IMG/VR virus record: IMGVR_UViG_3300040801_002332
Location: 1-36,225 of that record
Origin: a virus
Length of the DNA stretch: 36,225 bases
Strand: one strand, 5' to 3'
Shown here piece after piece: positions 20,372-36,225 of this stretch (within the stretch, counting starts at the first letter, position 1; each line of letters begins with the position of its first letter). The notes beneath the pieces are model-generated. The model had not been told where the DNA came from. It saw only the letters and a program-made list of their open reading frames with translations, and did not search any database. A program made the position numbers and the translations under genes.

Positions 20372-20373
20372 TA

Positions 20374-20650: not shown

Positions 20651-20764
20651 TGTTTCACCCTCTATTGATCAGTTTTGCTGATAAGTCTGTTGCTTTTTTG
20701 TACAATCGCTCATTCCGCCAACCTGTTTTTTATGCTGATTTCACAGTCGTCCCTGACCGTAGTA

Positions 20765-20845: not shown

Positions 20846-20887
20846 ACACAAAAAGCCTGTCTACGATTCTCTGCTCATTTCATACCT

Positions 20888-22753: not shown

Positions 22754-22923
22754 CTAGTCTTGTTCAGCGGCGTGTATTCGCCGCTTTCTATTAACTCTGA
22801 TACTGACCTACCGCCTTTTAACTGATGCCTGAAAATGACGCCTACTACGTGCTCCACACCATTCACCTCCTTGCAAACAAAGAAGCGATTATCTTGCCTC
22901 ACGTAGAGTTGCTGTTTTTTCAT
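22744..22923 (-). CDS. Hypothetical protein (59 aa), not in the ORF track
   Basis: ATG at 22923 preceded by GAGGTGA. Translates MKKQQLYVRQDNRFFVCKEVNG...KTRWQ*. Its end overlaps the polymerase ATG by 10 nt. Confidence 0.55.
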   Translation of the reverse strand: MKKQQLYVRQDNRFFVCKEVNGVEHVVGVIFRHQLKGGRSVSELIESGEYTPLNKTRWQ

Positions 22924-22932
22924 TTTATCACC

Positions 22933-23811: not shown

Positions 23812-23853
23812 ATGCGCCTCAGCAGGGGTCAAAGCCCCTGCTTTTCCGGTTGG

Positions 23854-24324: not shown

Positions 24325-24337
24325 GTCTAATACCCCA

Positions 24338-24550
24338 TTAGTCTGTAGTGATGTGGTCTAAGTTGCGTGCATATATGTATCGTTTATACAACCTATTTCT
24401 TACTTCATGCTCTTGCTCCATCGGCCCATACAACTCGGAAAACTGAATCATGGGACCACTGCCACACGCAGTCAGCGTGATTCCGTCGACAACTCTTTGC
24501 GTCCCATAATCGTCAGTTATAAATCTTCTAAACCCGTCTAGTGAAATCAT
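24338..24550 (-). CDS. Hypothetical protein (70 aa)
   Basis: ATG-initiated ORF packed tightly in the operon, overlapping the upstream gene by 23 nt. Confidence 0.5.
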   Translation of the reverse strand: MISLDGFRRFITDDYGTQRVVDGITLTACGSGPMIQFSELYGPMEQEHEVRNRLYKRYIYARNLDHITTD

Positions 24551-25277
24551 GTTTGCCTCTCATTTTAGCTACCAGTGCAGCAAGCGACGGGAACGATTCC
24601 CCGGCCTCTGGCACCTCATATTGATCTAGTTTGTCGCTGCGATCTCTCGCAATCGCTTTATTTCCGTGTCTACACTGTAAGTAGGTGTATTCCGTCCCAT
24701 CCTCATAGCGGTCTCTGATAGCCCTCATAATCACGTTAAAACAACCTGGAAACTGACTAGCGTATGCCCGCCCCGGAACCATAGGCCCCAACTCCTTCAC
24801 CCCTGTAACCTGATCTGTGTTCTTTTCCATGCCTGCTAATACCAGGACGTTCATTCCGCTACTTTTTAGCGCCCGGATGACGCCATCCATTTTTTTGGAT
24901 GTTGCTTGATACGCCTGCCGCAAGTCAACGCCTTCCATCGGGTTGCCTACCGGCCCTTTCCTCTTAGAGCAGGCCGCGTCGATTATAATCTGCTCTTCTT
25001 CATGCAGAATCATATTGCCTAGTGCCGTAGCGCTATCTAGCACAATCCAGTCGTAGCCGCTTTGCTTAACCTCCAAAAAGCCCGCTCTAACCTCATCCAG
25101 CGTGTTACATTCAATGAAATCAACCTCTAGGTCCTGTAGGCTGAGCAAACCATGGTCAGTGTCTAAAATGCAAACACTCCCTGGTAACGTGCCTATAAGT
25201 GGCGTCTTTCCGCTGCCAGGCTCACCGTAAATTAGTATGCTTAGGTTTTTGCCTGGATTGTTTGTTTTCTTGATCAT
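24528..25277 (-). CDS. AAA_24 / Sak4-like RecA-core ATPase
   Basis: Walker A (YGEPGSGKT) and Walker B-like (WIVLDSA), with size and context typical of Sak4-family proteins. The ATG at 25277 is preceded by GAGGTGA. The track's GTG at 25283 lies inside that RBS. Confidence 0.8.
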   Translation of the reverse strand: MIKKTNNPGKNLSILIYGEPGSGKTPLIGTLPGSVCILDTDHGLLSLQDLEVDFIECNTLDEVRAGFLEVKQSGYDWIVLDSATALGNMILHEEEQIIIDAACSKRKGPVGNPMEGVDLRQAYQATSKKMDGVIRALKSSGMNVLVLAGMEKNTDQVTGVKELGPMVPGRAYASQFPGCFNVIMRAIRDRYEDGTEYTYLQCRHGNKAIARDRSDKLDQYEVPEAGESFPSLAALVAKMRGKHDFTRRV

Positions 25278-25305
25278 CTTCACCTCGTTTTGTTACTGTA
25301 AGACT

Positions 25306-25334
25306 ATAGTACACTAGTTAGTGTTGTGACGCAA
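25306..25334 (-). promoter_or_regulatory. Candidate internal sigma70 promoter with embedded palindrome
   Basis: The minus strand reads TTGCGT-N17-TACTAT in the gap between the primase-helicase stop and the ATPase gene. The spacer contains the palindrome ACACTA-gt-TAGTGT (25311..25324). Confidence 0.45.
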
Positions 25335-25337
25335 GTG

Positions 25338-27446
25338 CTAATTTGCTTTATATAGTGTTTTTTTACCCTCTTTGATTTCTTGAATAGAACTGCACTCTAT
25401 TAGTTCATTCAGATAATCAATACGGCTATTCCTAGTCAACCACTTGCTGTTGCGTATAAGCGATGCTTTGCTGATTCCGCTATCGCCGCTGCTACGTATG
25501 ATGGACAATAACCCGTTCTTATCTCGCTCTGTGTTGTTGTCAGCTACATTCTCAGAAACATCTACCAGCAGAGACTCATCGCAGTGGAGGGCTAGCATAC
25601 ACGACCACCGTGCGTGAGCCTCTGTGATTACCGGCTTGTCATGCTCATCTGCAATAGCTGCTATCGTAGCAATTCGCATGGCCTTCTCTACTGTTCTATT
25701 TAGAACATTTGCTAGTTTCTCGCCCGCCTTATCTTGCAGTCGTATAACATGATCCTCTAGTTTACTGAAAACGTTTTGAGCCTCAGTACTCACGCTAACA
25801 GGTACCATTGAGGGACGCTGTTTATAGTCGTCAAATGCAGGTTTGTGTCTAGGTTCCCCTCTTCTTATGTAGAGTAGCGTGTCAGCTAGATGTTGGCTCA
25901 TAGGACGCCATTTTCCTGGTATGCGTTTTTGCCTCCCCTCTTTACTGCGATACACTAGCAATCTGCTAACAAAACCATCTGTTAGTGAACCGCTGCTCAG
26001 AGCGTCATAAAACGCACTTGTAGTTGTCGCACCTAACATAGATACGCCAGGATTGTAGACTGTGAACATGTCGGGTGATAACCCTGCGGTATCCTCCCCT
26101 TTGGTTTCTTTTTTCCGAAATTCACTCACCAGGCTGTAACTCATAGGAGTGTAGCTAGAGACACCTTTACTAAACAATTCCATCAGCGTCGTGAGTGCCT
26201 CAGTCTTGTTTACGTTGCTTCCAGCCGTCGATAGATGCCTACCTAGTTCATCGATTAGCGCTATATGAGCGGGCTGGTATAACAGCTCACTGAGCACCGC
26301 GCCAGCAGATTGATAGCCACCACAATACACGCGGCCTAAACCAGCATCGTCAACAGCGTTTTTCACCGTAGTTATCGCGCTTTCTTTACCGCAACCACTC
26401 TCCCCCAGCACCACGAAAAACATATCTGTGGTGTTACGCTCACTGCTCACGTAGCGTCGAGCAGAGCACACGCTGAACACGGCGAGGGCGCTGATTAACG
26501 CGAAACCAGGCTGATGTTTAGCCTGAATAGATAAGAAATAGTCGTATAACTCTTTTACGCCGCCGGGAATAGCGTTTATAACTTGGCTGAAACTGATGGT
26601 TTCGCCTAGTTTGCTCACCTGTGCTTCTTCTTGCGGTTCCGGTATCTCTACTCGTCCACGCCAACCATTCTCGCGTGCCCAGAAATACAGAGTGTCTGCT
26701 GTCACACCTCCAGAGTTGAATGAGTTCCAGTGTTTTGCGCACACATCAGCACCGCCGTAATTTCTGGCCGTAGCTGACCACGTATCCCATTCATCGAAAA
26801 GACCTGCATCTTTGCAGATCATCCCCGCTTTCACCCACACATCATAATTGCTAGCATCAACATGTTGCAACGCGTCTACAATATCGAGTTTTTCGTTCGC
26901 AGTGTAGCACACGCCGCCATCGACGGCTGCGCTCTCAGATTTTTCTACTCGTTGGATGAGCCAAATAGGCGCTTCTTCTGCCGCATCACCGCATATTACA
27001 TCGTACTCGCCTTTTTCGGTGACTGAGCCTGGCCCAACTACGAAACCACCATCGCCGCGTATATCAACGCCAGCAGCCAGCGATCCTGCGCTGTTAGGGA
27101 TATGACCTGCTATGTCAACAGGATAACTATAATAATAGTGAAATCCGCCGCTTGCTGTTTTGATTGTTAGTGTGTCAGGCGAGTAATCGTTTTCTCTACA
27201 TAGGTCATCCCACGAGTCTACGCCACCGGCCCCATCTTTGACATCAACATCGACAACAAAAATACCACTACGTCTCCCTGTTGCTATGCCGTAACCTGTT
27301 GATCCTACGCCACTAAACAGCGAACGCATCTCCTCTATATCACTAGTTGCCTCTGTTGTCCATCTGCATGCTGGCTCTTTCCCCCCTGGTATCAGTGGGA
27401 ACATATCAAAACCGGCATGAGAAAATGCCTGAATGTATTTTTTCAT
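25338..27446 (-). CDS. Bifunctional primase-polymerase (Prim-Pol) / P-loop helicase
   Basis: N-terminal Prim-Pol motifs (GFDMFPLIPGGKEP, FVVDVDVKDG, GGFHYYY, DIRGDGGFVVGPGS). A PriCT-like segment follows (VWVKAGM...WDTWS...KHWNSF). The C-terminal part carries Walker A (GESGCGKES) and Walker B (LIDELG). Confidence 0.85.
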   Translation of the reverse strand: MKKYIQAFSHAGFDMFPLIPGGKEPACRWTTEATSDIEEMRSLFSGVGSTGYGIATGRRSGIFVVDVDVKDGAGGVDSWDDLCRENDYSPDTLTIKTASGGFHYYYSYPVDIAGHIPNSAGSLAAGVDIRGDGGFVVGPGSVTEKGEYDVICGDAAEEAPIWLIQRVEKSESAAVDGGVCYTANEKLDIVDALQHVDASNYDVWVKAGMICKDAGLFDEWDTWSATARNYGGADVCAKHWNSFNSGGVTADTLYFWARENGWRGRVEIPEPQEEAQVSKLGETISFSQVINAIPGGVKELYDYFLSIQAKHQPGFALISALAVFSVCSARRYVSSERNTTDMFFVVLGESGCGKESAITTVKNAVDDAGLGRVYCGGYQSAGAVLSELLYQPAHIALIDELGRHLSTAGSNVNKTEALTTLMELFSKGVSSYTPMSYSLVSEFRKKETKGEDTAGLSPDMFTVYNPGVSMLGATTTSAFYDALSSGSLTDGFVSRLLVYRSKEGRQKRIPGKWRPMSQHLADTLLYIRRGEPRHKPAFDDYKQRPSMVPVSVSTEAQNVFSKLEDHVIRLQDKAGEKLANVLNRTVEKAMRIATIAAIADEHDKPVITEAHARWSCMLALHCDESLLVDVSENVADNNTERDKNGLLSIIRSSGDSGISKASLIRNSKWLTRNSRIDYLNELIECSSIQEIKEGKKTLYKAN

Positions 27447-27844
27447 ATGCCCGTGCCATCATCTAGTTGATGTGTTTTAGCATAGTGTCTAACGAATTCT
27501 AACCCTAGGCAGGCTCTACCCGTTAGGTGCCTACGCTCCCCATTATAGCCGTGTTCTTTTGCTAGGTCCCACCGCTTACACCCGTCAGGACCAGCAAACA
27601 TCCCCATCAGAGCAGCATATAGCTGCTCATCAAAACGTTTCAATGCGCTCATACATTTCTCAGCAGCCCACACCTCTTTAGTTGGTGGGGTATCTGGGTT
27701 AGTTGCCGGTATGATGTCTCCACTCTGCATTAGTTTACACTCAATCCCTATTGATTTAAACCACTGCGGGTAGCAGTTACTGTCATCGAGTGTCCAGTAG
27801 TACCACGTTTTTAGCTCGCTGAATAGTTTTAAATAACTCATCAT
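27443..27844 (-). CDS. Hypothetical protein (133 aa); weak resemblance to small Q-type antiterminators
   Basis: N-terminal W..W pattern (LKTWYYW) and a C-terminal helical segment (LYAALMGMFAG...LAKEHGY...GRACLGLEFV) recall short Q-like proteins. Not conclusive. Confidence 0.4.
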   Translation of the reverse strand: MMSYLKLFSELKTWYYWTLDDSNCYPQWFKSIGIECKLMQSGDIIPATNPDTPPTKEVWAAEKCMSALKRFDEQLYAALMGMFAGPDGCKRWDLAKEHGYNGERRHLTGRACLGLEFVRHYAKTHQLDDGTGI

Positions 27845-28371
27845 GATTCATCCACATCGAACGTTACAAGGACGGGAAGCCCTAGCGCGAAATCACCGCC
27901 TAACAATACATATTTTGTTTTGTCATATACGTACCGCTGTATTCTGACCTCCTCCCCGCCTTCCGTCATAGCGCTGACGGGTTTCATACCCGCCGGGACT
28001 ACGTAAGTGCCGTAAGAAAATGGAACCCTTTGGAAATACCACCCCCTGGTGTTTGTTTCGGTTTTCTCGCAATCTCTAACTAAAGCTACGCCCAACACCA
28101 TATAATTAAGGATGTCCATAAAGGCATCCTCTACACCCTCATTCTCTACCTTAAGCTCGCCTTTGTCGCAGAATGAGTTGATGCGCCCGATTTTATCCAT
28201 AACCCGCAGCAACAACCCCTTAACAGGGTGGATGCCAATAGCGCTAGCGCCGTCTTTGAAGTTGCTCAGCGCGTCATTCTCGCGCGAGTAGTCGTGATTT
28301 TTCGTCTTCATAATGTTTAGGCACGTAGTCGTGAGCCCCTCATGCAACTCAAGCAATTCCGCGGTATTCAT
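27841..28371 (-). CDS. MazG-like / DUF1599-like all-alpha NTP pyrophosphohydrolase domain fused to an unknown beta-rich C-terminal domain
   Basis: KNHDY...SNF...RVMDKIGRI...EDAFMDILNY motif string in residues 20-100. Residues ~105-176 are unrelated and strand-rich. Confidence 0.55.
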   Translation of the reverse strand: MNTAELLELHEGLTTTCLNIMKTKNHDYSRENDALSNFKDGASAIGIHPVKGLLLRVMDKIGRINSFCDKGELKVENEGVEDAFMDILNYMVLGVALVRDCEKTETNTRGWYFQRVPFSYGTYVVPAGMKPVSAMTEGGEEVRIQRYVYDKTKYVLLGGDFALGLPVLVTFDVDES

Positions 28372-29111
28372 GAATACATCCTCTTTATGCGTTCTAGGCT
28401 CACCAGTTCCAAATCATACTCACCGTCATGGACATCATGCAGCATTGCACACCCCTGGAAATGATTCTGATCCTGAGGCCCACGGTACTCCTCATCATGC
28501 TCATAACAGCTACCTAATACTAGTCCATGTAACGTTTTCCCGTTTTTGAGTGGTTCCTGAGCGTAGCCCACACCCTGCTGATGACCCATAACGAAACTCA
28601 TTTTCAATTTATTCAGTTTGTTCTGGGGAGTACCGCCTATCGCACCTTTAGCATTAGGGTTAGCGAAATAGTGGCTAAATGTTATACCCTCTATAACTAG
28701 CTGATGTAAAAACTCATGCCGCTGCCAACCATTTCGCTCAATATAAAACCAGCGTTTCGGGTCTAACGCACCATGTAGCTGTGGGTCCGCTTCCATTGCT
28801 GTCGCGCATCTACCGCCGTCATGATTGCCAAGTAGCATATGTAATTCAGGGTCGTACCCATCCGCCTCGAGTATGGGTTTGGATAAACGAGCAAGAGCGT
28901 CGTTACCTGCTTTCGTATCGAGAACGAAACGCCTTCCCTCAATTTTTTTACGCCATTTGTCGTAGATGCTGAGGCTAGGCATATCCCAAAAATCACCCAG
29001 GTTTACGACGATCTCGGGTTGGTGATCTACGATATAGTAGCCTATATATTCCAGGAAAAGCGTGTCATCTTCAGGCCGTATCTGATTGTCTCCAATAACA
29101 AATATATTCAT
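28368..29111 (-). CDS. Calcineurin-like metallophosphoesterase
   Basis: Motifs VIGDNQ, NLGDFWD, LLGNHD, later His residues and GH (VMGHQQG). Confidence 0.75.
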   Translation of the reverse strand: MNIFVIGDNQIRPEDDTLFLEYIGYYIVDHQPEIVVNLGDFWDMPSLSIYDKWRKKIEGRRFVLDTKAGNDALARLSKPILEADGYDPELHMLLGNHDGGRCATAMEADPQLHGALDPKRWFYIERNGWQRHEFLHQLVIEGITFSHYFANPNAKGAIGGTPQNKLNKLKMSFVMGHQQGVGYAQEPLKNGKTLHGLVLGSCYEHDEEYRGPQDQNHFQGCAMLHDVHDGEYDLELVSLERIKRMYS

Positions 29112-29276
29112 CTAGCGCATCTCCTTGTTTGCTCTACGCGTCATTTTGACGGCATTAAAAAACACTAACGCGCCCAGCATATACTCTGGCCGCATGTACG
29201 TACCTATCACTATTCCTACATTTATACCTATCACTATCACAAAAACAACAGTTAATATTTTTTCTGCTGCGTGCAT
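29112..29276 (-). CDS. Small two-TM membrane protein (54 aa)
   Basis: The ATG at 29276 overlaps the stop of the upstream micro-ORF (TGATG). Hydrophobic segments ILTVVFVIVIGINVGIVIG and LGALVFFNAV. The track's longer form starts at 29297. Confidence 0.5.
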   Translation of the reverse strand: MHAAEKILTVVFVIVIGINVGIVIGTYMRPEYMLGALVFFNAVKMTRRANKEMR

Positions 29277-29350
29277 CACGAACCTCCACCGTAACACGCA
29301 ACTAACAGCGCGGCTGTCAACATTACTGCAATCATTAGATCGTATTCCAT
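29276..29350 (-). CDS. Micro-ORF encoding a 24-aa hydrophobic peptide
   Basis: MEYDLMIAVMLTAALLVACYGGGS*. Preceded by AGAGGG 8 nt upstream and coupled to the next ORF. Confidence 0.3.
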   Translation of the reverse strand: MEYDLMIAVMLTAALLVACYGGGS

Positions 29351-29384
29351 TGTATTACCCTCTATTGTTGTTAAAACTCTCGAA

Positions 29385-29858
29385 TTAATGCCCTACATAC
29401 TCATAGCCGTACTCTGCCAGTAGCGCGGCCTCAGCTCTGTTGTGGTCTTTTACTCTTTTAAACCTTTTGTCGTCGTTATATAGTTTTCTCACTAGATTCA
29501 AACTAGTGGATTTGTCGCTACTTAGCCCATATCGTGTCTTCCATGTTTTCGGTGGCACTGTTACGTATCTATCGGCTACCAGATACATGAGGGCCTCTAA
29601 TACGCCGAATGAGCGCATCAGTTTCCCGAATGATACTACGTGTCTAGCGTCTCCTGGCGTCGCCTGTATGCGCTCTATGACTGCCAAATCTATATGGTAC
29701 TGGGATAGCTTCCACGAAATCTCGCGTATGTCAAGGATCTTATGGTTGCCCTCGACTACTAATGGAAAATCAATAACGTCAATCAGTTGCCGCTTCTTCC
29801 CGAAATTTATAACTGCGACAGCCCCTGTCAACCCTGGGTCTACTCCTGCGATAATCAT
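29385..29858 (-). CDS. RuvC-like Holliday junction resolvase
   Basis: MIIAGVDPGLTGAVAV (catalytic Asp), DLAVIERI (Glu), and a C-terminal ...DHNRAEAALLAEYG. Confidence 0.8.
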   Translation of the reverse strand: MIIAGVDPGLTGAVAVINFGKKRQLIDVIDFPLVVEGNHKILDIREISWKLSQYHIDLAVIERIQATPGDARHVVSFGKLMRSFGVLEALMYLVADRYVTVPPKTWKTRYGLSSDKSTSLNLVRKLYNDDKRFKRVKDHNRAEAALLAEYGYEYVGH

Positions 29859-30052
29859 GGTATTATACCCCAGTCAAAAAACGCATCGTCATCAGATTCC
29901 TCTAGAGTTTCAACTCGCTCGCATCCTCGCATGACCCAAATACGGGGTGGCGCATTGACTGTTACAGCATTAGACCTGTTTACCCGTCGTAACTGTACGC
30001 CACAATACGCGAACTCCTGGTTATCCACTAACTCGGTGTATAGTTTTTTCAT
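29855..30052 (-). CDS. Hypothetical protein (65 aa)
   Basis: ATGA-coupled on both sides within the early operon. Confidence 0.5.
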   Translation of the reverse strand: MKKLYTELVDNQEFAYCGVQLRRVNRSNAVTVNAPPRIWVMRGCERVETLEESDDDAFFDWGIIP

Positions 30053-30258
30053 TCTAGTTTACCTCGCTCTAGTTCAATTTCCCAATCTGCCATGATTTGG
30101 TTCTCTAGATCGCTGTACAGATGTTCTATTTTCATCTGAATGTAATCAGCATCTGCCAGCAGTTGCTCGTCGATGTATTCTCGTGCATCAATCAGATACT
30201 CGCCCGCCTCTGTTATAGCTCGTAGAGCGGTAGTCATTTTCTCTATAGCTAAGCTCAT
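30049..30258 (-). CDS. Hypothetical, very acidic helical protein (69 aa)
   Basis: 17 Asp/Glu against 6 Lys/Arg by my count. ATGA-coupled. Confidence 0.5.
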   Translation of the reverse strand: MSLAIEKMTTALRAITEAGEYLIDAREYIDEQLLADADYIQMKIEHLYSDLENQIMADWEIELERGKLE

Positions 30259-30866
30259 TTCTGCATAACCTCTTTAATCTGTTCGTAATTCAATCCTGCT
30301 TTAACTAACCCTATCATCTGACCTGTCATGCTGTTCAGTTTATGCAATCTAGGGTCGTGGTTCTCTAGCATCGAGTCACGCACTGGCCCAAACTCTTTCT
30401 TGTATTGTGTGGCGGATACGCCTGTCACTGCCTTACATACCAAGTTGGCGAGGCTGGCGTAAGCGAACCTAGCATTGAGTTGCAACGAGTTGATGTTTGC
30501 ATCAACCGCTTCTTGAAACGTTACCCAATCCTCTCGCATGAACTGCCTAACATCTGCCAAGGCTTCGGCTTCGGCGGCTAGCTTGTCGCCTTCCTTGATG
30601 TCGCCATTCTTGTAAGCTAACCAAGAGTTGATTACCTTCTGTCTTAGCTCAGGCTTGTAACCGGTGATCAGCAAGTACAGATCATTTTCGCCCATTAGGT
30701 ATTCAGTTCTCAACTGGCCCTGCTTATCTGCGTATGACCCCGGCTCAAAAGTGAGCCCGCTGACTTCTTGATTATTAAGAAGTTTTTCTATATCACGTAT
30801 TACATTTTTGTGTATCTTGCCTGTAACCTCAGCTACTTTTCTGCTAGTGTACTTTAGTTCACTCAT
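30255..30866 (-). CDS. Rha-family phage regulatory protein (antirepressor-like)
   Basis: N-terminal TSRKVAEVTGKIHKNVIRDIEKLL...Y.DKQGQ...YL...LLITGY...LR..VI..W is the Rha-domain signature. Confidence 0.8.
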   Translation of the reverse strand: MSELKYTSRKVAEVTGKIHKNVIRDIEKLLNNQEVSGLTFEPGSYADKQGQLRTEYLMGENDLYLLITGYKPELRQKVINSWLAYKNGDIKEGDKLAAEAEALADVRQFMREDWVTFQEAVDANINSLQLNARFAYASLANLVCKAVTGVSATQYKKEFGPVRDSMLENHDPRLHKLNSMTGQMIGLVKAGLNYEQIKEVMQK

Positions 30867-31030
30867 TTCATTCTCCTATTCAGTAGTTCGTTACTATCTA
30901 GAATCCAGTATCCCATCTCCTTACCTACACTCTTATTCATTTCAGCAGCCTGTGATGGCTCCATGTCTAACGTATCGCCGGCTTTATTGGTATACGGAAG
31001 AATAAATCTGTTAGCCTGTTCCCGTTTCAT
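30863..31030 (-). CDS. Hypothetical protein (55 aa), not in the ORF track
   Basis: ATG at 31030. Translates MKREQANRFILPYTNKAGDTLDMEPSQAAEMNKSVGKEMGYWILDSNELLNRRMK*. Its stop forms an ATGA overlap with the Rha gene start. Confidence 0.5.
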   Translation of the reverse strand: MKREQANRFILPYTNKAGDTLDMEPSQAAEMNKSVGKEMGYWILDSNELLNRRMK

Positions 31031-31037
31031 GTCGCCC

Positions 31038-31214
31038 CTAATTAGTTAGTGTCATCTGGAAAACATCATCGTATCCGATACTCGCATTTACTCTACGAGC
31101 ATTCTCTGCTCGCAATCTAATAGCATCGATAGCGTCCATATAATCGTCTCGAACTCTAGTGATCCGCTTTTTGCCCTCGTTGTTAGCATCAACATAATAA
31201 AAATTATCAATCAT
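31038..31214 (-). CDS. Candidate ribbon-helix-helix DNA-binding protein (58 aa), not in the ORF track
   Basis: ATG at 31214 with GAGGA upstream. The protein is MIDNFYYVDANNEGKKRITRVRDDYMDAIDAIRLRAENARRVNASIGYDDVFQMTLTN*. The KKRITRVR strand followed by two helices mirrors CopG/omega-type RHH layout. Confidence 0.45.
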   Translation of the reverse strand: MIDNFYYVDANNEGKKRITRVRDDYMDAIDAIRLRAENARRVNASIGYDDVFQMTLTN

Positions 31215-31295
31215 TTTCGTATCCTCAGTTAATTTGTTTGTTCGTTCAGCATGGGAGTAGTGTCTCGTACTATAGGCTGCCTGTCAACCCTTTTT

Positions 31296-31514
31296 TCACT
31301 CTTGCACGTCATCCCTAACATCACCCTGGCTTAATACAAGCCTCCAACCGTCCCATATTTCGCTTTTAACCTCGCCCTCGTGTGTCAGTATACCATACGC
31401 CTGTAGGGCCGCTATAACCACTCCAACCGTACCTAGGGAGGGGTCCTCCTCTTTGCTTGGTAGCATTTCATGCCGCACGCTATTATCCTTGAAATTCACC
31501 GCAGTCACACGCAT
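31296..31514 (-). CDS. Hypothetical protein (72 aa)
   Basis: ATG start, overlapping the upstream gene by 10 nt. Confidence 0.5.
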   Translation of the reverse strand: MRVTAVNFKDNSVRHEMLPSKEEDPSLGTVGVVIAALQAYGILTHEGEVKSEIWDGWRLVLSQGDVRDDVQE

Positions 31515-31792
31515 GATGTTTGCCCGCGCATCAGCTCAATCAGTACACCTGCCCGTCGAAAATCGAACCGCATTAGTACATTCTTCTTAGCTCGATACAG
31601 CTCTAACCCATCGTAGCTGTTGTTGCATGTCGCTGTGTCTAGCGGGTCCACATTAAACAGCATAGAAGCAGCGTCAATGACGTAATCATGATCCATCGTT
31701 AGCCACTCTGCTAACTCTACGCTAGTGATGACATAGCCGCAGTCATACGCTGCGGCATTACGTAAAAAGTCTGGATACTCAACTGTGTACAT
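31505..31792 (-). CDS. Hypothetical protein (95 aa)
   Basis: ATG start in an operon-packed position. Confidence 0.5.
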   Translation of the reverse strand: MYTVEYPDFLRNAAAYDCGYVITSVELAEWLTMDHDYVIDAASMLFNVDPLDTATCNNSYDGLELYRAKKNVLMRFDFRRAGVLIELMRGQTSCV

Positions 31793-31961
31793 TGTTCGTA
31801 CTCGCTCTTGTTTGCTCTATCGGAACAAGGGTCACAAACCACCGGGTATATTTCGCGAAAGCCTGGGCATTCTTGCGGGAATAGAAGAATTTAGGTTGCC
31901 CGTCTATGTCTGTAACCCTCCAAATAGCGCCTTTAGGTGCGAAATCTTGTAATACTTTCAT
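31779..31961 (-). CDS. Hypothetical protein (60 aa)
   Basis: ATG start in an operon-packed position. Confidence 0.45.
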   Translation of the reverse strand: MKVLQDFAPKGAIWRVTDIDGQPKFFYSRKNAQAFAKYTRWFVTLVPIEQTRASTNNVHS

Positions 31962-31972
31962 GATGTTATCCT

Positions 31973-32521
31973 CTAGTGAAAACGTTTGGTCATCGGTACT
32001 GCACGTCGTTTCATAAACGGCAATTCTCCCACAATCCTGTTTGGCCGGGCCTTACTAGACTCAGCGTAAAACTTAGTCACCCAATCCAAACCTTTAGGCG
32101 TCCATCTAATACTACTATATCCTTCCTTGTTTGTCACTACCTTGCATAGACCTTGGTCAATTAAATGCTGCTTTGGTAGCGCGTTATGTCTGAATACATG
32201 GTCATGAGCGCGTAACCGGCCTAGTAAGCGCTTTACGCCTGCGCCTACACTCTTGGCTGCCACTGCATTACTAAACATTCCGTCTGAATCCATCAAAGCC
32301 TGAAAGCTTTTCACTTTAGGCGCGTCAGCTTCTAGTTTCTCTGCCTGCCGCGTATTGATGTCTGTAAGCTGTTTATTCTCGCGCTCCTTATCTAGTGCAA
32401 TCTGCAACGCCTGTTCAAGTGTGAACTCGATTTTAGGTTGCGCCACTTGCTGCTCTAACTCTTGCCACCTCTGTATGACTGCATTCCGTAATTTTATGCT
32501 GTAACCTGTCACTAGAGTCAT
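31973..32521 (-). CDS. KilAC-domain antirepressor-like protein lacking its N-terminal DNA-binding domain
   Basis: The C-terminal ...AAKSVGAGVKRLLGRLRAHDHVF....PKQHLIDQGL......G......TPKGLDW pattern fits KilAC. The first 25 aa are the tail end of a Rha-type domain. Confidence 0.7.
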   Translation of the reverse strand: MTLVTGYSIKLRNAVIQRWQELEQQVAQPKIEFTLEQALQIALDKERENKQLTDINTRQAEKLEADAPKVKSFQALMDSDGMFSNAVAAKSVGAGVKRLLGRLRAHDHVFRHNALPKQHLIDQGLCKVVTNKEGYSSIRWTPKGLDWVTKFYAESSKARPNRIVGELPFMKRRAVPMTKRFH

Positions 32522-32623
32522 GACTAACTCTTTGTCCAGATATATAGCATTAGTTTGACCGTTATCCTTCCTATACTCTATAGAAAATCCTTTATAATCA
32601 ACAGGGTCCAGTTTTGGGCCCTG
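32522..32623 (-). pseudogene. In-frame 5' remnant of a Rha-type domain upstream of the KilAC gene ATG
   Basis: The frame is open for 34 codons above the ATG and reads QGPKLDPVDYKGFSIEYRKDNGQTNAIYLDKELV. It is paralogous to FEPGSYADKQGQLRTEYLMGENDLY of the 203-aa Rha protein. It is closed by a TGA at 32626..32624, with no ATG or GTG inside. Confidence 0.55.
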
Positions 32624-32738
32624 TCACTTACGTCGTTATCGCGTTTACCCTGCTCGCCTTCAAAAATATACACTCTTGTCTTCTTGTTTGGGCTAAGTGA
32701 CTGATTATCCTCAACTTCCTCAAATTGAGGGAGTTGAA

Positions 32739-32873
32739 TCACCCACTCTGCTTGTTTCGGTTAGTCTCGTAGTAGTCAATGATGGATACAATCACTAGCG
32801 ATGCTGTAACCGCCACTACTACCGATAGGGCCCAAACCGCAATCATCAATAATGCCACTATAATGTCTGTCAT
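32739..32873 (-). CDS. Small membrane protein (44 aa), not in the ORF track
   Basis: The ATG at 32873 directly follows the upstream stop (TAAATG). Translates MTDIIVALLMIAVWALSVVVAVTASLVIVSIIDYYETNRNKQSG*. Confidence 0.45.
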   Translation of the reverse strand: MTDIIVALLMIAVWALSVVVAVTASLVIVSIIDYYETNRNKQSG

Positions 32874-33083
32874 TTATCTACCTTTTATCAATCGTTTAAT
32901 GTAGGACCCTTGGGCCAACCTGTCGTACTTCTTGTTAAACCTAGCGTTACCTATTGCGTAGTCGTATTCCTCCCTAAATTCACCTGTCATGAGCGCCCCA
33001 AGCGCGAATCTTGCTAATATGAAGACTAAGTACTGTGAGCCTAACAGAATGGATAACTCAGCTATTGTCATTAAAATGTTCAT
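32874..33083 (-). CDS. Small membrane protein (69 aa)
   Basis: Hydrophobic N-terminal half (ILLGSQYLVFILARFALGALM) and basic C-terminus. Confidence 0.5.
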   Translation of the reverse strand: MNILMTIAELSILLGSQYLVFILARFALGALMTGEFREEYDYAIGNARFNKKYDRLAQGSYIKRLIKGR

Positions 33084-33531
33084 CGTAGAATCCTTGAATC
33101 AGTGTAGTGTAGTCTGTGTACTCGTTTACTTCTTTGCTGTCATGGTTTAAATGATACATCGCTGCATTCTCATTGTCAATGATTTTCTGCTGTAATTCCA
33201 CCCATTTTTTAGGCTCTGCTCTGATAGCGTCCAACATAGCCTGGATACGTGCCGCGTTGCGCTTGCGTACTTTCGCTTGAATCTCAGTGATGCTAGGCGC
33301 TTTGTACATCGCTTTGATACGGTCAGCAGTGTATTTAGCGCTGACAGGGGCCATTTCAGCCGCTCCTAGGTCACTCTTACTGCCGGTACCCTTCTTGTAA
33401 TACTCGGCTTGTTTGGCCGCGTTGGCTCGTTTAATGGCATTTACTTTGGCTCTTTGCTCATACGTATAATCATAATCAACTAGCTGGGATTTGCGTGCCA
33501 TAATTGCTTGATTTTCTCTTGTCGCTCTCAT
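33058..33531 (-). CDS. First early gene product (157 aa), basic helical, unknown function
   Basis: ATG at 33531 preceded by AGGAG, about 40 nt downstream of the early promoter. Confidence 0.6.
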   Translation of the reverse strand: MRATRENQAIMARKSQLVDYDYTYEQRAKVNAIKRANAAKQAEYYKKGTGSKSDLGAAEMAPVSAKYTADRIKAMYKAPSITEIQAKVRKRNAARIQAMLDAIRAEPKKWVELQQKIIDNENAAMYHLNHDSKEVNEYTDYTTLIQGFYDEHFNDNS

Positions 33532-33576
33532 TTTTAGTGCTCCTGGTTGTTTGTGTGTACTGCTCTGACAATTCGA

Positions 33577-33605
33577 ATACTACTCCACCAGTCTATCGTT
33601 GTCAA
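33577..33605 (-). promoter_or_regulatory. Early leftward sigma70 promoter
   Basis: The minus strand reads TTGACA-N17-TAGTAT, about 45 nt upstream of the first early ATG. Confidence 0.75.
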
Positions 33606-33776
33606 CAGTTATTCTAAATTTATTTCATTAAATTCCTGCGCCACTGTTGTACGCTATCCACTCCTTATATATATACGCGCGAGTAGCGCAGCGAACGAGC
33701 CGAGGAAGACAATGGGAAGCAATAAAGCTATATCACATTAGTTATGTGCTTATTCCGTATTGATATAAATAAAAGC

Positions 33777-33805
33777 TTGACTTTTGCTGAAAAATATGCT
33801 ACCCT
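33777..33805 (+). promoter_or_regulatory. Rightward sigma70-like promoter P1 (no ORF downstream for ~320 nt)
   Basis: aaaagcTTGACT-N17-TACCCT, with an A-rich upstream element. Confidence 0.5.
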
Positions 33806-33867
33806 TAAAGACACAATCACAAGCAACAGCACAAACAACATCAACGGCAACAGCTACTAGCTGATCT

Positions 33868-33981
33868 TAACTATAAAGAATAAATTACTTCAGATAACTA
33901 TAAAACATAAGAAGTAAGCAATAAGTAAAGCTGTAAGCGCTCTCGCTTTCAGCGATCGCTTAAGATAACTATAAAGCATAA
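33868..33981 (+). repeat. Three dispersed TAACTATAAA(g/a)(a/c)ATAA boxes in the non-coding stretch
   Basis: Copies at 33868..33883, 33895..33910 and 33966..33981. Between them lie TAAG-rich sequence and the 10-bp palindrome AGCGATCGCT (33951..33960). Confidence 0.85.
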
Positions 33982-34061
33982 GAATAAGCTCTCTCTCCTA
34001 TATGCTCCTTGAGCAAAGCTATTGCCTGAGAAAAGTAGCGTAAAATTAGTCCAAAAAAAGC

Positions 34062-34090
34062 TTGCATTCTGAATAAGACAGGTGTATCTT
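34062..34090 (+). promoter_or_regulatory. Rightward sigma70-like promoter P2 for the plus-strand cassette
   Basis: aaaaagcTTGCAT-N17-TATCTT, 36 nt upstream of the lipoprotein ATG. It shares the AAAAGCTTG context with P1. Confidence 0.6.
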
Positions 34091-34125
34091 AGAACCATCA
34101 ACTCAACAAACAAAGGAACACGGAA

Positions 34126-34302
34126 ATGAAAACAACATTAGTAGCACTAGTAATCAGTGGAGTCGTATTAGGATGCTCTACAATCTCAATGCTGCCTAAC
34201 GGCGAGGTTTACGAGGCAAACACGATACAGGTACAGGTGACGGAAAAACAGGCGCTACAGAACGCCGCCAGTGAGTTCGTTAAAACAGTCTACGGACAAT
34301 GA
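34126..34302 (+). CDS. Small lipoprotein (58 aa precursor), not in the ORF track
   Basis: MKTTLVALVISGVVLG/CSTISMLPNGEVYEANTIQVQVTEKQALQNAASEFVKTVYGQ*. It has a Lys n-region, a hydrophobic core and a VLGC lipobox. Its stop forms an ATGA overlap with the next gene. Confidence 0.7.
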   Translation: MKTTLVALVISGVVLGCSTISMLPNGEVYEANTIQVQVTEKQALQNAASEFVKTVYGQ

Positions 34303-34505
34303 GAGAAAATAGGAGAAAGGAAATGAACGAGTTAGTACTAGACCCAAAATACTACGAAATGGAATGGGATCAATTGGAGGAAACCGAGGAGTGGAATCCG
34401 AATGATCTGGAAGTGGAAATGAATATGGCAGAAAGAGCACATCTAGAAGAGGAGGTAAGGAAGGCAAGATGCTTAGGTGTGACTGTTTTTGAAACTAATT
34501 TCTGA
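34299..34505 (+). CDS. Very acidic small protein (68 aa)
   Basis: 19 Asp/Glu against 9 Lys/Arg by my count. Translationally coupled to the lipoprotein gene. Confidence 0.6.
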   Translation: MRENRRKEMNELVLDPKYYEMEWDQLEETEEWNPNDLEVEMNMAERAHLEEEVRKARCLGVTVFETNF

Positions 34506-34520
34506 GGAGCATAACGGCAT

Positions 34521-34542
34521 AGCGCCCCGCAATGAGGGCGCT
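34521..34542. terminator. Hairpin between convergent transcription units (candidate bidirectional terminator)
   Basis: AGCGCCC-cgcaatga-GGGCGCT (7-bp GC-rich stem). It lies between the plus cassette stop (34505) and the endolysin stop (34557). The U-tracts are weak. Confidence 0.45.
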
Positions 34543-34556
34543 TCCGCTTATATAAA

Positions 34557-35027
34557 TTACGTATATTTCACTCTAGCAAAATGCATCCAGTCGTAATTTT
34601 TAGCTCTACCGAGACTAGCGAAATTATGCAATTCCATTATATCGAGGAACATTTCATACTCAGGCTGAGCAAACAATGCCCGCTCCCTACCCCAGCTCAG
34701 GCGATTACCTAACGGGTGAATATCGATAGCTGAACCAAAAGCATGGCTAGACCATTTCGTCCCTCCTCGTATCCTCCTCACGTTTGTCGTTCCACCAAAT
34801 AAATCCAATCCCAGCTCCATAATACGATCCCTACCGTACGCGAGCCAGATACCATCTAGGGCGTTCTGTAAATCCTCAGATGCTAGCTCATGGCATTTGA
34901 TGCGCGACACCTGAACCTCTGGTTTCCACGCTAGCCTCAGCGGGTATCTAGGGTATATAAATGTTTGTCGCGTGCCTGGCATGCCGTAATACGCGATCTG
35001 ATCTTTGTCGGTGTTATACGGTAACAT
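34557..35027 (-). CDS. Endolysin, M15/LAS-family zinc peptidase
   Basis: SSHAFGSAIDIHP (H-x6-D) and DWMHF motifs. 156 aa, and the last gene of the leftward programme. Confidence 0.75.
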   Translation of the reverse strand: MLPYNTDKDQIAYYGMPGTRQTFIYPRYPLRLAWKPEVQVSRIKCHELASEDLQNALDGIWLAYGRDRIMELGLDLFGGTTNVRRIRGGTKWSSHAFGSAIDIHPLGNRLSWGRERALFAQPEYEMFLDIMELHNFASLGRAKNYDWMHFARVKYT

Positions 35028-35035
35028 ATATCCCC

Positions 35036-35824
35036 CTAGATAGATTCAATCAGTAGCCTACAGGACTGAGCCCGTGTATCAATGGGGAGACCCCAATCGT
35101 AGATTTCGCACTCCACATCTACAACATCATTAGCTGCTAGATTCGCTATAATAGTCGCCGTCATTGTGTCAGCACCTCTATCTGCTGTCCTATGATAGCC
35201 ATACATTTTAGTCCCTGGGATTTCCGTGCTGTTTTTTCGTATATAACAGAGTGATGCCGTACGGCTAGTGCCCTCTACCATGTCAATTGTGACCTCTGCC
35301 GTGATTTTATAATAGCCTGCATTAGCTATTGTCACAGCGCCACCAACGTTAGTAAAACCGGGGTCTGAGTACACCACGGTATCGAAATCTAACACGATAG
35401 GCGCGTCTATCTCAATAACCTGAGTACCGCTGTTGTACGCGCAATGCCTGATAATAGGGGAGCTAGAACCTGCTGGTCCCACTGGTCCCTGAATGCCTTG
35501 AGGACCCACGTCTCCTGTATCCCCTTTCGGCCCAGTTGGCCCGATGTCGCCTTGAGGACCTGCCGGACCTATTGGTCCTTGATCACCTTGAATTCCCTGT
35601 ATACCTTGAGGCCCCGTGTCCCCTTGTGGTCCCTGCGGCCCCGTGTCCCCTTGTGGTCCCTGCGGCCCCTGTGGACCTGTATCGCCTTGGGGACCTTGCG
35701 GGCCTTGAATACCCTGCGGACCTGGCTGTCCCTCTGGCCCTGTTGGTCCCATAGGCCCTTGAGGACCTGCAGACCCACTAACCGATAACGCTAGTGGTTT
35801 TTTATTAGTAATAAACAGTTTCAT
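35036..35824 (-). CDS. Collagen-like fibre protein with C1q/TNF-like globular C-terminal domain
   Basis: 35 uninterrupted Gly-X-Y triplets (aa 17-121). The 140-aa C-terminal domain has a C1q-like pattern ([14 protein letters not shown]...[17 protein letters not shown]...LCYIRKN...[16 protein letters not shown]). Confidence 0.75.
35610..35663. repeat. Perfect 27-bp tandem duplication inside the collagen-like region
   Basis: ggccccgtgtccccttgtggtccctgc occurs twice back to back, duplicating three Gly-X-Y triplets. Confidence 0.9.
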
Positions 35825-36183
35825 CGTGTAACCCCCTGAAATACAGTGATTTTGCCTTCTAGAATCCTATCAACACTCTCGTCCTTGACAAGCAGAAGAT
35901 CATATACATGCCTGCCTGGTTCCAGCAAATCAGTCTGATCTGCCGTTATAGTTACAGCTATGGTCCCCTCAGCACCTCCTAGGGTTATCCCATTAGCATC
36001 ATCCAGTTCTAATTCAGCATCAGGAGCGTCTATGGTTTTTCTGATGTGCATTAATGTAGTATACGAGGCCAGGTCTAGCGGCGTCTCCTCGTCGGATTCA
36101 AACATCGCAATTTCAAGAACGAAAGTTCCGCCTCTGTTGATCTCTAGGTCTAATAATTGTGTATTGCGTCTCAGTGTCGCCAT
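35821..36183 (-). CDS. Beta-sandwich (Ig-like) protein, possible fibre adaptor (120 aa)
   Basis: The pattern RGGTF.L.I........PLDL......M.IR.......ELE........G.I.V.I.A..T..L.....VYDLLL......RILEGKI.V resembles Ig-like N-domains of phage fibre/baseplate proteins. ATGA-coupled to the collagen-like gene. Confidence 0.45.
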   Translation of the reverse strand: MATLRRNTQLLDLEINRGGTFVLEIAMFESDEETPLDLASYTTLMHIRKTIDAPDAELELDDANGITLGGAEGTIAVTITADQTDLLEPGRHVYDLLLVKDESVDRILEGKITVFQGVTR

Positions 36184-36225
36184 TAGTCACCTCTGTGAAG
36201 GGGAGGCTCCTCTACGGGGCCTCCT
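36109..36225. repeat. Terminal direct repeat, copy 2 (identical to 1..117)
   Basis: Same 117-nt string as 1..117. This implies a circular or concatemeric template with a 36,108-bp unit length. Confidence 0.95.

What the first reader, a model, noticed from the sequence alone, without database searches (positions are those of the whole stretch)
34126..34505. The only plus-strand cassette: tiny lipoprotein plus hyper-acidic partner, beside the receptor-binding genes
The cassette has a host-type promoter and two ATGA-coupled genes. The first encodes a 58-aa lipoprotein precursor whose mature form is about 42 aa. The second encodes a 68-aa protein with net charge of about -10. They are transcribed against the rest of the genome and converge on the fibre and endolysin genes. 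T5 llp and the cor genes of phi80/N15-type phages are small lipoproteins encoded next to receptor-binding genes, and they block the phage's own receptor (superinfection exclusion). The coupled acidic protein has no counterpart in those systems. The pair may be a two-component exclusion or anti-defence module.
Basis: partly seen in the sequence, partly recalled or inferred. Interest (0 to 1): 0.65.

Follow-up and report, generated by a model that had tools for sequence, protein, structure and literature searches.

The report
Orphan phage lipoprotein and acidic-protein operon
A newly seen bacteriophage carries two tiny genes read against all its other genes: one makes a membrane-anchored lipoprotein that probably blocks the phage's own receptor, and the other makes a very acidic cell-interior protein. 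Neither resembles anything in public databases, so the function is inferred from position only.

Summary
The two plus-strand ORFs are real genes. They have phage-like codon usage, flipped strand skews and Shine-Dalgarno sites, and they are the only coding plus-strand ORFs in a complete ~36.1-kb siphophage genome that looks virulent.

ORF1 (34126-34302) is a textbook prolipoprotein: MK, hydrophobic core, VLG|C17, Ser+2. It gives a 42-aa mature form.

ORF2 most likely starts at 34323, with its own GGAG site. That makes it 60 aa with net charge -12. The ATGA-overlapped start at 34299 (68 aa, -10) is less likely. ORF2 has no signal peptide, so the two products end up in different compartments.

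The "host-type promoter" matches the consensus at only 7 of 12 positions.

Neither protein has a homologue in 5.8 G or 1.84 G protein sets, Pfam, PHROGs, NCBIfam, PADLOC, PDB, IMG/VR, metagenomes or GTDB genomes. ORF1 is not a member of the Llp/Cor, Rtp45, Bor or spanin families: there is no sequence similarity, no internal disulphide and no TM partner.

The layout does match T1 cor and lambda bor: opposite strand, converging on the end of the tail/lysis operon. A receptor-jamming exclusion lipoprotein is the best guess (~0.35), with an independent cytoplasmic acidic protein alongside. A "two-component" module is not supported. Interest is modest.

The parts
34056..34090 (+). Putative weak promoter of the cassette: A-rich stretch, then TTGCAT (34062-34067), a 17-nt spacer and TATCTT (34085-34090)
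   Evidence: Read from the sequence. It matches the consensus at only 7/12 and the scan did not report it. A look-alike AAAAGCTTGACT-17-TACCCT lies at 33771-33805 (D8).
34114..34117 (+). Shine-Dalgarno AGGA, 8 nt before the ORF1 start
   Evidence: It is part of a 22-nt near-repeat shared with the ORF2 initiation region (D3).
34126..34302 (+). ORF1: 58-aa prolipoprotein. Signal peptide 34126-34173, lipobox VLGC, lipid-modified Cys17 at 34174-34176. Mature form is 42 aa, 4.6 kDa, pI 4.5, with Ser at +2.
   Evidence: lipobox rule; coding potential; AF2: beta-hairpin plus helix, pLDDT 74. No homologues.
34312..34315 (+). Shine-Dalgarno GGAG, 7 nt before ATG 34323
   Evidence: (D3)
34323..34505 (+). 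ORF2, favoured form: 60 aa, net charge -12, pI 4.1, no signal peptide or TM segment. An in-frame alternative start at 34299 (ATGA overlap with the ORF1 stop) gives 68 aa and net charge -10.
   Evidence: public gene call is 60 aa; coding potential 0.45-0.51; charge; AF2: mostly coil, one helix at 35-50, pLDDT 70. No homologue besides itself in an exhaustive search.
34521..34542 (.). G+C-rich hairpin (AGCGCCC-N8-GGGCGCT) in the 51-nt gap between the convergent ORF2 and endolysin genes. Possible bidirectional terminator, but without a U tract.
   Evidence: Fold energies are not exceptional (z = -0.8 and -1.55).
34557..35027 (-). Context: M15-family endolysin, the last gene of the late operon, convergent with the cassette
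   Evidence: phrog_17001, E = 4e-49; Peptidase_M15_4
35036..35824 (-). Context: collagen-like tail fibre with a BclA-C-like head
33577..33605 (-). Context: strong early promoter TTGACA-17-TAGTAT, divergent from the cassette, driving the early operon that starts at 33531
33892..33984 (+). Context: two copies of the 22-nt element AGATAACTATAAARCATAAGAA (33892-33913 and 33963-33984) flanking a small palindrome, between the divergent promoters. Possible regulator binding sites.
   Evidence: The element is found only here; 0 matches expected by chance.

Best explanation
The cassette is a small accessory operon of a novel, apparently virulent siphophage. The host is unidentified but appears to be Gram-negative and to use Shine-Dalgarno sites.

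SHOWN
- Two real genes lie on the strand opposite to all others. They sit between the end of the late tail/lysis operon and the start of the early operon.
- Gene 1 encodes a prolipoprotein with a canonical signal-peptidase-II site.
- Gene 2 encodes a very acidic protein with no export signal.

INFERRED
- The operon is transcribed independently of the main early-to-late programme, from a weak promoter.
- ORF1 is lipidated at Cys17, cleaved, and sorted (Ser at +2) to the inner leaflet of the outer membrane.
- Its 41-residue periplasmic part (beta-hairpin plus amphipathic helix) binds the periplasmic face of the outer-membrane protein that the phage uses as terminal receptor. This locks the receptor in a form the tail tip cannot bind, as T5 Llp, T1 Cor and Rtp45 do.
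- That would stop superinfection and keep progeny from being wasted on the debris of lysed cells.
- ORF2 acts separately in the cytoplasm. Its most plausible role is as a nucleic-acid-mimicking or otherwise inhibitory early protein directed at a host defence or host enzyme. It is co-transcribed with ORF1 but is not a physical partner of the lipoprotein.
For: - Coding status: codon usage, skews and SD sites. The same cassette occurs on an independent contig from another assembly.
- Lipoprotein: the lipobox rule is met, with ~0.3% chance per ORF. ORF1 is the only credible lipoprotein in the genome.
- Gram-negative host: the endolysin has no cell-wall-binding domain. Its relatives occur only in diderm phyla and are often followed by u-spanin-like genes.
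- Virulent lifestyle: every ORF of >=250 aa is assigned to replication, packaging, tail or lysis functions, and there is no integrase-sized unassigned ORF.
- Layout: in T1 the J operon is followed by a terminator, then cor on the opposite strand, then a divergent next operon. Here the arrangement is the same. T5 llp also lies on the strand opposite the late genes, beside the receptor-binding gene.
- Literature: small (~6 kDa) periplasmic lipoproteins that jam FhuA or LptD are the established exclusion device of small virulent siphophages and are encoded at the J/RBP locus (PMC9586334, PMC12685063, PMC11990801, PMC13164509).
- ORF2: no hydrophobic segment, net charge -12, own RBS.
Against: - No homology to any exclusion lipoprotein.
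- The mature part is shorter (42 aa against 59-62) and lacks the internal disulphide of Llp/Cor/Rtp45.
- The predicted fold differs and has no structural neighbour. The models are single-sequence and only moderately confident.
- The promoter is weak and unverified.
- The endolysin gene, not a receptor-binding gene, is the immediate neighbour.
- No related phage exists in any collection searched, so conservation and co-variation with a receptor-binding protein cannot be checked.
- The host and receptor are unknown.
- The role proposed for ORF2 rests on charge alone.
Confidence: 0.35

Rival explanations
1. Bor-type 'moron'. The lipoprotein changes the host envelope for a purpose unrelated to the phage's own receptor, such as host fitness, resistance to external stress or other phages, or a carrier state. 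ORF2 is an unrelated passenger gene.
For: Lambda bor has the same geometry with respect to the lysis genes: it lies 31 nt after Rz on the opposite strand. The cassette is an independent transcription unit with its own weak promoter and a hairpin.
Against: There is no Pfam Lambda_Bor match. No lysogeny genes were found, so there is no obvious prophage state in which to express a conversion gene. Codon usage matches the phage's, so the cassette is not a recent import.
Confidence: 0.15
2. Lysis-related module. In a phage with no recognisable spanin, the only lipoprotein, encoded next to the endolysin gene, takes part in outer-membrane disruption. Alternatively, together with the cytoplasmic acidic protein, it controls lysis timing from both sides of the inner membrane, as T4 RI and RIII do for the holin.
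For: No lipobox ORF exists on the late-gene strand, and there is no i-spanin or u-spanin candidate. Relatives of the endolysin sit in holin-endolysin-u-spanin cassettes. The cassette abuts the endolysin gene. ORF1 gives a weak hit to an 'Rz-like spanin' PHROG (E = 0.095).
Against: That PHROG hit covers the signal peptide region, and the mature part alone gives nothing. ORF1 has no C-terminal TM segment, is not proline-rich and has no extra Cys. ORF2 has no TM segment, so neither spanin architecture is met. The cassette is on the opposite strand and is not in the late operon. The holin gene is 14 kb away.
Confidence: 0.12
3. True two-component module. The lipoprotein and the acidic protein work as a pair, for example as a toxin/immunity pair or a joint exclusion or anti-defence device, with translation coupled through the ATGA overlap.
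For: The genes are adjacent and co-oriented, and an in-frame ATG overlaps the ORF1 stop. They are the only two + strand genes.
Against: A better start with its own SD lies 24 nt downstream, and public gene calls use it. ORF2 has no export signal, so the products are separated by the inner membrane. There is no PADLOC or family hit. There are no relatives in which co-occurrence could be tested.
Confidence: 0.1
4. One or both ORFs are not expressed as proteins, and the region is a non-coding spacer or regulatory RNA region.
For: There are no homologues anywhere. One public gene call truncates ORF1 to 37 aa starting at Met22. The promoter is weak.
Against: Both ORFs score like real genes and above every other + strand ORF. 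Strand skews flip exactly here. Both have SD sites at the right spacing. The full n-h-c signal peptide plus lipobox is unlikely by chance.
Confidence: 0.05

Closest known systems
Cor of phage T1 (also phi80, N15, HK022): outer-membrane exclusion lipoprotein that inactivates FhuA
   Same: Both are small prolipoproteins with Cys at position 17. Both genes lie on the strand opposite the tail operon, converge on the genes downstream of J with a terminator or hairpin between, and are followed by a divergent next operon. T1 is also a virulent small siphophage with a lambda-J-like tip.
   Different: There is no sequence similarity beyond the signal peptide. Mature Cor is 59 aa with two internal Cys; mature ORF1 is 42 aa with none. 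T1-type cor cassettes carry two membrane-protein genes (PMC13164509), not a cytoplasmic acidic protein. Here an endolysin gene lies between the cassette and the fibre genes.
Llp of phage T5: lytic-conversion lipoprotein that binds the periplasmic face of FhuA (PDB 8A60)
   Same: Both are small lipoproteins of a virulent siphophage, encoded on the strand opposite the late genes near the receptor-binding gene and followed by further small genes on the same strand. The mature N-terminus is CST- in both.
   Different: BLASTP finds no alignment. Llp is 62 aa mature, beta-rich and disulphide-bonded (PMC9586334). llp diverges from the pb5 gene, whereas this cassette converges on the endolysin and fibre genes. 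Neither the sequence search nor the listed Foldseek hits against PDB returned Llp.
Rtp45 / SE-Oekolampad: ~6-kDa lipoproteins that block LptD
   Same: They belong to the same class: a tiny periplasmic lipoprotein of a small siphophage that excludes by deforming an outer-membrane protein receptor (PMC12685063).
   Different: Rtp45 has a Cys30-Cys38 disulphide, and ORF1 has no second Cys. The sequence search of PDB chains returned no phage lipoprotein.
Bor of phage lambda (Iss family lipoprotein)
   Same: Both are lipoprotein genes placed immediately after the lysis genes on the opposite strand, as independent transcription units.
   Different: Bor is 97 aa, belongs to Pfam Lambda_Bor and (from general knowledge, not checked here) is expressed from the prophage. 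ORF1 has no Pfam hit, and the phage shows no lysogeny genes.
Small acidic phage inhibitors that mimic nucleic acid (T7 Ocr, T7 gp5.9, several anti-CRISPRs). Comparison for ORF2 only, drawn from general knowledge.
   Same: ORF2 is very small and very acidic (pI ~4.1, net -12 over 60 aa), is cytoplasmic, and lies in a unit that host RNA polymerase could read early.
   Different: No sequence or structural similarity to any of them was found. The model is mostly coil.

Membership tests
Llp/Cor exclusion lipoproteins | N-terminal signal peptide with lipobox and lipid-modified Cys | tested here: met
   MKTTLVALVISGVVLG|C17 fits the PROSITE-type rule. Actual lipidation cannot be tested here.
Llp/Cor exclusion lipoproteins | Detectable sequence similarity of the mature part to Llp or Cor | tested here: not met
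   No BLASTP alignment to Llp. The 17.7-bit match to Cor is driven by the signal peptide. For the mature parts, 31-41% of shuffles score as well. No PHROG or Pfam hit.
Llp/Cor exclusion lipoproteins | Conserved intramolecular disulphide (two further Cys in the mature protein) | tested here: not met
   ORF1 has a single Cys, the lipidated one. Llp and Cor each have two more (PMC9586334).
Llp/Cor exclusion lipoproteins | Llp-like fold | tested here: inconclusive
   The AF2 single-sequence model (pLDDT 74) is a beta-hairpin plus helix. Foldseek against PDB gave nothing below E = 2.9, and 8A60 is not among the listed hits. The model is too uncertain to exclude a match.
Llp/Cor exclusion lipoproteins | Gene at the tail-tip/RBP locus, transcribed against the late genes | tested here: met
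   The layout is the same as T1 cor. One endolysin gene lies between the cassette and the fibre gene.
Llp/Cor exclusion lipoproteins | Blocks adsorption by binding the phage's outer-membrane receptor | not testable with these tools
   Host and receptor are unknown.
Lambda Bor / Iss | Match to Pfam Lambda_Bor | tested here: not met
   The Pfam scan at E <= 1 returned only a chance DUF188 hit.
Lambda Bor / Iss | Expressed from a prophage | tested here: not met
   No integrase, repressor or partition gene was recognised. Every ORF of >=250 aa is assigned to another function.
Spanins (o-spanin with i-spanin, or u-spanin) | Partner i-spanin with an N-terminal TM segment encoded with it, or a C-terminal TM segment in the same protein | tested here: not met
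   ORF1 has no TM segment after the signal peptide, ORF2 has none at all, and there is no i-spanin-like ORF in the genome.
Spanins (o-spanin with i-spanin, or u-spanin) | Encoded in the late lysis cassette on the same strand as the holin and endolysin | tested here: not met
   Opposite strand. Relatives of the endolysin do have same-strand u-spanin-like genes.
Moron (independent promoter-gene-terminator unit) | Own promoter and terminator | tested here: inconclusive
   The promoter matches only 7/12 and the hairpin has no U tract.
Moron (independent promoter-gene-terminator unit) | Composition foreign to the genome | tested here: not met
   Codon usage is like that of the phage's own genes.
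Acidic DNA-mimic inhibitors (ORF2) | Homology or structural match to a known mimic (Ocr, ArdA, gp5.9, Acr) | tested here: not met
   No hits in Pfam, PHROGs, NCBIfam, PADLOC, PDB or the 1.84 G representatives. Foldseek gave nothing. Only the high negative charge is shared.

The most novel reading that the evidence does not exclude
In a phage that has no spanin, the oppositely oriented cassette is a two-compartment device. A 42-residue outer-membrane lipoprotein and a hyper-acidic cytoplasmic protein would act on the same envelope process from both sides. One possibility is control of the GTA-type holin or of outer-membrane rupture, as T4 RI and RIII do for the T holin. Another is coupling of receptor shut-off to an intracellular switch. 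Either would be a new kind of lysis or exclusion control with no sequence relatives.
Probability: 0.08. Interest if true: 0.7.

Novelty: new variant of a known kind. Interest (0 to 1): 0.3.

Why it matters
If ORF1 proves to be an exclusion lipoprotein, it would add a fourth family to Llp/Cor and Rtp45. It would be sequence-unrelated, smaller and disulphide-free, from a phage lineage far from the coliphages. That would show that jamming the receptor from the periplasm with a tiny lipoprotein is a general, repeatedly invented solution.

Such proteins also point directly to the phage's receptor, because they bind it. That is useful for a phage whose host is unknown.

The acidic protein is a candidate new inhibitor of a host defence or enzyme.

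None of this is established. At present the cassette is a well-formed orphan operon of the sort common in phage genomes.

Tried and rejected
- Homologue searches. ORF1 and ORF2 were searched against the 5.8 G protein set. ORF2 was searched exhaustively against 1.84 G representatives. Both were scanned against Pfam, PHROGs, NCBIfam and PADLOC and PDB sequences. Both were also searched in IMG/VR and JGI metagenome contigs, and ORF1 additionally in GTDB genomes. Only self-matches came back.
- Related phages for synteny. Searches used DNA, TerL (all hits <30%), endolysin (<=49%), the first early protein (none) and the J N-terminus (25%). No usable relative was found, so conservation of the cassette cannot be assessed.
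- A recurring weak tblastn match of ORF2 about 600 nt downstream of endolysin genes in several IMG/VR loci. It falls in an acidic stretch of a 343-aa phosphoesterase-like protein and was rejected as chance.
- The BLASTP E = 0.007 to T1 Cor. Rejected as signal-peptide similarity after a shuffle test on the mature parts.
- The PHROG 'Rz-like spanin' hit at E = 0.095. Rejected because it covers the signal-peptide region and the mature part alone gives nothing.
- Structure searches on both AF2 models. Nothing below E = 0.6.
- Rfam and tRNA scans of the window. Nothing.
- Sample look-up for SRR7428105 in the paper library. Nothing.
- Host inference from endolysin relatives. It indicates diderm bacteria only, with no clade.

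Full report
WHAT THE WINDOW IS

The first and last 117 bases of the window are identical. The sequence is therefore a complete genome of about 36,108 bp written with an overlap. The late operon runs straight across the junction.

All large genes lie on the minus strand. Read in their own direction, they begin at 33531 with early genes: small proteins, then Ant/Rha-type regulators. Next come:
- a phosphoesterase
- a primase
- an AAA_24 protein
- a Cas4-type exonuclease
- a family A DNA polymerase

Then comes a 726-nt AT-rich gap, followed by a GTA-type holin and a polysaccharide lyase.

After those come the packaging, head and tail genes: terminase, portal, a protease-capsid fusion, tail genes, the tape measure and a 1689-aa lambda-J-like tip protein.

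Across the junction lie an LtfC-like protein, a collagen-like fibre and an M15 endolysin that ends at 34557.

No integrase-sized unassigned ORF remains, so the phage looks virulent.

Its terminase is less than 30% identical to that of any deposited phage, and there is no DNA match. A second public contig (Logan, SRR7428105, 4.8 kb) carries the same region with two substitutions, both outside the cassette.

Yes, with corrections.

ORF1 (34126-34302) and ORF2 (to 34505) are present. A codon-usage log-likelihood trained on the phage's long genes gives 0.28 per codon for ORF1 and 0.45-0.51 for ORF2. Sixty-codon windows of real genes give 0.32 +/- 0.095. No other plus-strand ORF of 40 aa or more exceeds 0.19.

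Over the cassette the plus strand is 64.5% purine, with GC skew +0.28 and AT skew +0.30. The rest of the genome has negative skews on this strand. The claim that this is the only plus-strand cassette therefore stands.

ORF1 reads MKTTLVALVISGVVLG|CSTISML.... It has Lys2, an uncharged hydrophobic core, the lipobox V-L-G-C with Cys at 17, and Ser at +2. The PROSITE-style rule is met. In shuffled genomes the rule is met about 2.2 times per ~800 start/ORF combinations, or about 0.3% per ORF. The mature protein is 42 aa, 4.6 kDa, pI 4.5, with no second cysteine.

No ORF on the minus strand has a lipobox, even under a relaxed rule. ORF1 is thus the only credible lipoprotein of the phage.

Three parts of the description need correcting.

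First, the ORF2 start. The ATGA overlap at 34299-34302 exists, but ATG 34323 is the better start.
- GGAG at 34312-34315 lies 7 nt upstream of it.
- Its initiation region is a 22-nt near-repeat of ORF1's (AACAAAGGAACACGGAAATGAA versus AAAATAGGAGAAAGGAAATGAA, D3).
- ATG 34299 has no Shine-Dalgarno motif.
- The public gene call is the 60-aa form.

ORF2 is then 60 aa with 17 acidic and 5 basic residues, net charge -12 and pI 4.1.

Second, the promoter. TTGCAT-17-TATCTT (34062-34090) matches the consensus at only 7 of 12 positions and the scan did not report it. The sites with 10-11 of 12 matches are all on the minus strand in the early region: 33605-33577, 33179-33151 and 29831-29804. A look-alike of the cassette element (AAAAGCTTGACT-17-TACCCT) sits 285 nt upstream. 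Any promoter here is weak, or it needs an activator.

Third, the terminator. The 51-nt gap to the endolysin gene holds a 7-bp G+C hairpin (34521-34542) without a U tract. Its folding energy is unremarkable.

WHAT ARE THE PROTEINS?

Neither has any detectable relative. For both proteins:
- the 5.8-billion-protein search returned only self-matches
- Pfam, PHROGs, NCBIfam, PADLOC and PDB sequences gave nothing meaningful
- scans of IMG/VR and JGI metagenome contigs with their peptides found no relative; ORF1 was also scanned against GTDB genomes

For ORF2, an exhaustive phmmer search of 1.84 billion representatives also returned only itself.

Single-sequence AlphaFold models are moderately confident.
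- Mature ORF1 is a beta-hairpin (residues 3-6 and 12-15) followed by a helix (17-40), with pLDDT 74. The C-terminal part of the helix is moderately amphipathic.
- ORF2 is mostly coil with one helix (35-50), with pLDDT 70.

Foldseek found no neighbour in PDB or BFVD.

ORF2 has no signal peptide or hydrophobic segment. It should stay in the cytoplasm while ORF1 is exported.

SURROUNDINGS AND HOST

The endolysin has no cell-wall-binding domain. Its relatives, at most 49% identical, are found in Bacteroidota, Pseudomonadota, Desulfobacterota and other diderm groups. In viral contigs they often sit in holin-endolysin-lipoprotein cassettes. In the one cassette read in full, the ~150-aa lipoprotein has a C-terminal TM segment, which is a u-spanin architecture.

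This phage has no such gene and no i-spanin candidate. About half of its genes have GAGG/AGGA-type sites, and its early promoters are of the TTGACA/TATAAT type. That argues against a Bacteroidota host. No finer assignment was possible.

COMPARISON WITH KNOWN SYSTEMS

I read the annotated records of three model phages.

T1: the J gene and two downstream genes are followed by a terminator. Next comes cor (75 aa, Cys17) on the opposite strand, and then a divergent recombination operon. This is the layout seen here.

T5: llp (77 aa) lies on the strand opposite the late genes, back to back with the pb5 gene. Four small single-TM genes follow it.

Lambda: the bor ORF lies 31 nt after Rz on the opposite strand.

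A small lipoprotein gene read against the end of the tail/lysis operon is therefore a known pattern.

The literature shows that Llp binds the periplasmic face of FhuA and refolds two external loops. It shares about 20% identity and a disulphide with Cor (PMC9586334). Rtp45, about 6 kDa with a Cys30-Cys38 disulphide, does the equivalent to LptD (PMC12685063). Virulent small siphophages typically encode such factors at the J locus to keep progeny off cell debris (PMC11990801). T1-type cor cassettes include two membrane-protein genes (PMC13164509).

Membership fails on every feature that could be tested.
- BLASTP finds no alignment between ORF1 and Llp.
- The 17.7-bit match to Cor is confined to the signal-peptide end. 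When only the mature parts are compared, 31-41% of shuffled sequences score as well.
- ORF1 lacks the two extra cysteines.
- ORF1 is a third shorter.
- ORF1 is predicted to be half helical.

It is equally not a Bor (no Pfam match). It is not a spanin either: there is no TM partner and no C-terminal TM segment, it is on the wrong strand, and it is neither proline-rich nor disulphide-capable.

MOST LIKELY MECHANISM

The anatomy is shown: two genes, an export-and-lipidation signal on the first, none on the second, and a position and orientation like cor.

The rest is inferred. The operon is read independently of the main programme. ORF1 is lipidated and sorted to the inner leaflet of the outer membrane. 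There it binds the periplasmic side of the phage's receptor and makes it unusable. ORF2 works on its own in the cytoplasm, plausibly as an acidic inhibitor of a host defence or enzyme.

I put about 0.35 on this. The rivals are:
- a receptor-unrelated envelope 'moron' (0.15)
- a lysis-related role in this spanin-less phage (0.12)
- a true two-protein module (0.10)
- non-expression (0.05)

The remaining probability is 'something else'.

VERDICT

This is a real and tidy orphan operon. The lipoprotein call is sound. The exclusion function is a reasonable analogy by position only, and the two-component idea is not supported. It is best described as a possible new variant of the known class of phage exclusion lipoproteins. 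Interest is modest until a host is found.

Noticed in passing
window 1-117 and 36109-36225: The window ends are an exact 117-bp direct repeat. The sequence is therefore a complete ~36,108-bp genome written with an overlap. The late operon (J-like gene, 93-aa gene, LtfC-like gene, fibre, endolysin) runs across the junction.
   Followed up: partly
window 20162-20887: A 726-nt non-coding, AT-rich (37% GC) gap lies between the DNA polymerase and holin genes. It holds about eight tandem AGTAACA units (20373-20427) and three 21-bp iterons, TGTATCATTTTAACGCAATCG (20765-20827). It could be a replication origin or a middle/late control region.
   Followed up: partly
window 33532-34125: The 594-nt region between the divergent early operon and the cassette holds two copies of a 22-nt element (33892 and 33963) found nowhere else in the genome. 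It also holds a small palindrome (33936-33962), CA-rich leader-like stretches, and two similar AAAAGCTTG(AC/CA)T promoter-like elements 285 nt apart. It looks like a regulatory switch region. A 38-aa + strand ORF (33744-33860) has a gene-like codon score (0.30) but no SD.
   Followed up: partly
window, whole genome; L078 5783-6880: The phage has no recognisable spanin of either type. Its holin (19763-20161, GTA_holin_3TM) is 14 kb from its endolysin (34557-35027). Viral contigs with related endolysins often have a lipoprotein gene directly downstream on the same strand. In L078 the arrangement reads as a compact holin-endolysin-u-spanin cassette.
   Followed up: partly
window 17868-18779 (-): A 303-aa protein with a polysaccharide lyase domain (Pfam PF14099, E = 2e-29) is encoded between the holin region and the terminase genes. 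It may be a capsule or exopolysaccharide depolymerase placed outside the tail module.
   Followed up: no
window 11822-13579 (-): A 585-aa protein matches both prohead-protease and major-capsid PHROGs, which suggests a fused protease-capsid gene.
   Followed up: no
window 34251-34266 (-): A terminator-like hairpin with a T run lies on the minus strand, inside and antisense to ORF1. Late transcripts that read past the endolysin gene might end here after crossing ORF2 antisense. One such site is expected by chance in this stretch.
   Followed up: no
window 33151-33179, 33577-33605, 29804-29831 (-): The three best sigma70-type promoter matches of the searched stretch 17000-36225 (10-11 of 12) all lie on the minus strand in the early region. 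One of them is inside the first early gene. Early transcription by unmodified host polymerase therefore seems likely.
   Followed up: no
L166 22827-23491 (phage T5 record): In T5, llp is followed on the same strand by four small genes, each annotated with a single TM segment. Exclusion lipoprotein genes thus do come with small co-oriented companions in known phages.
   Followed up: no
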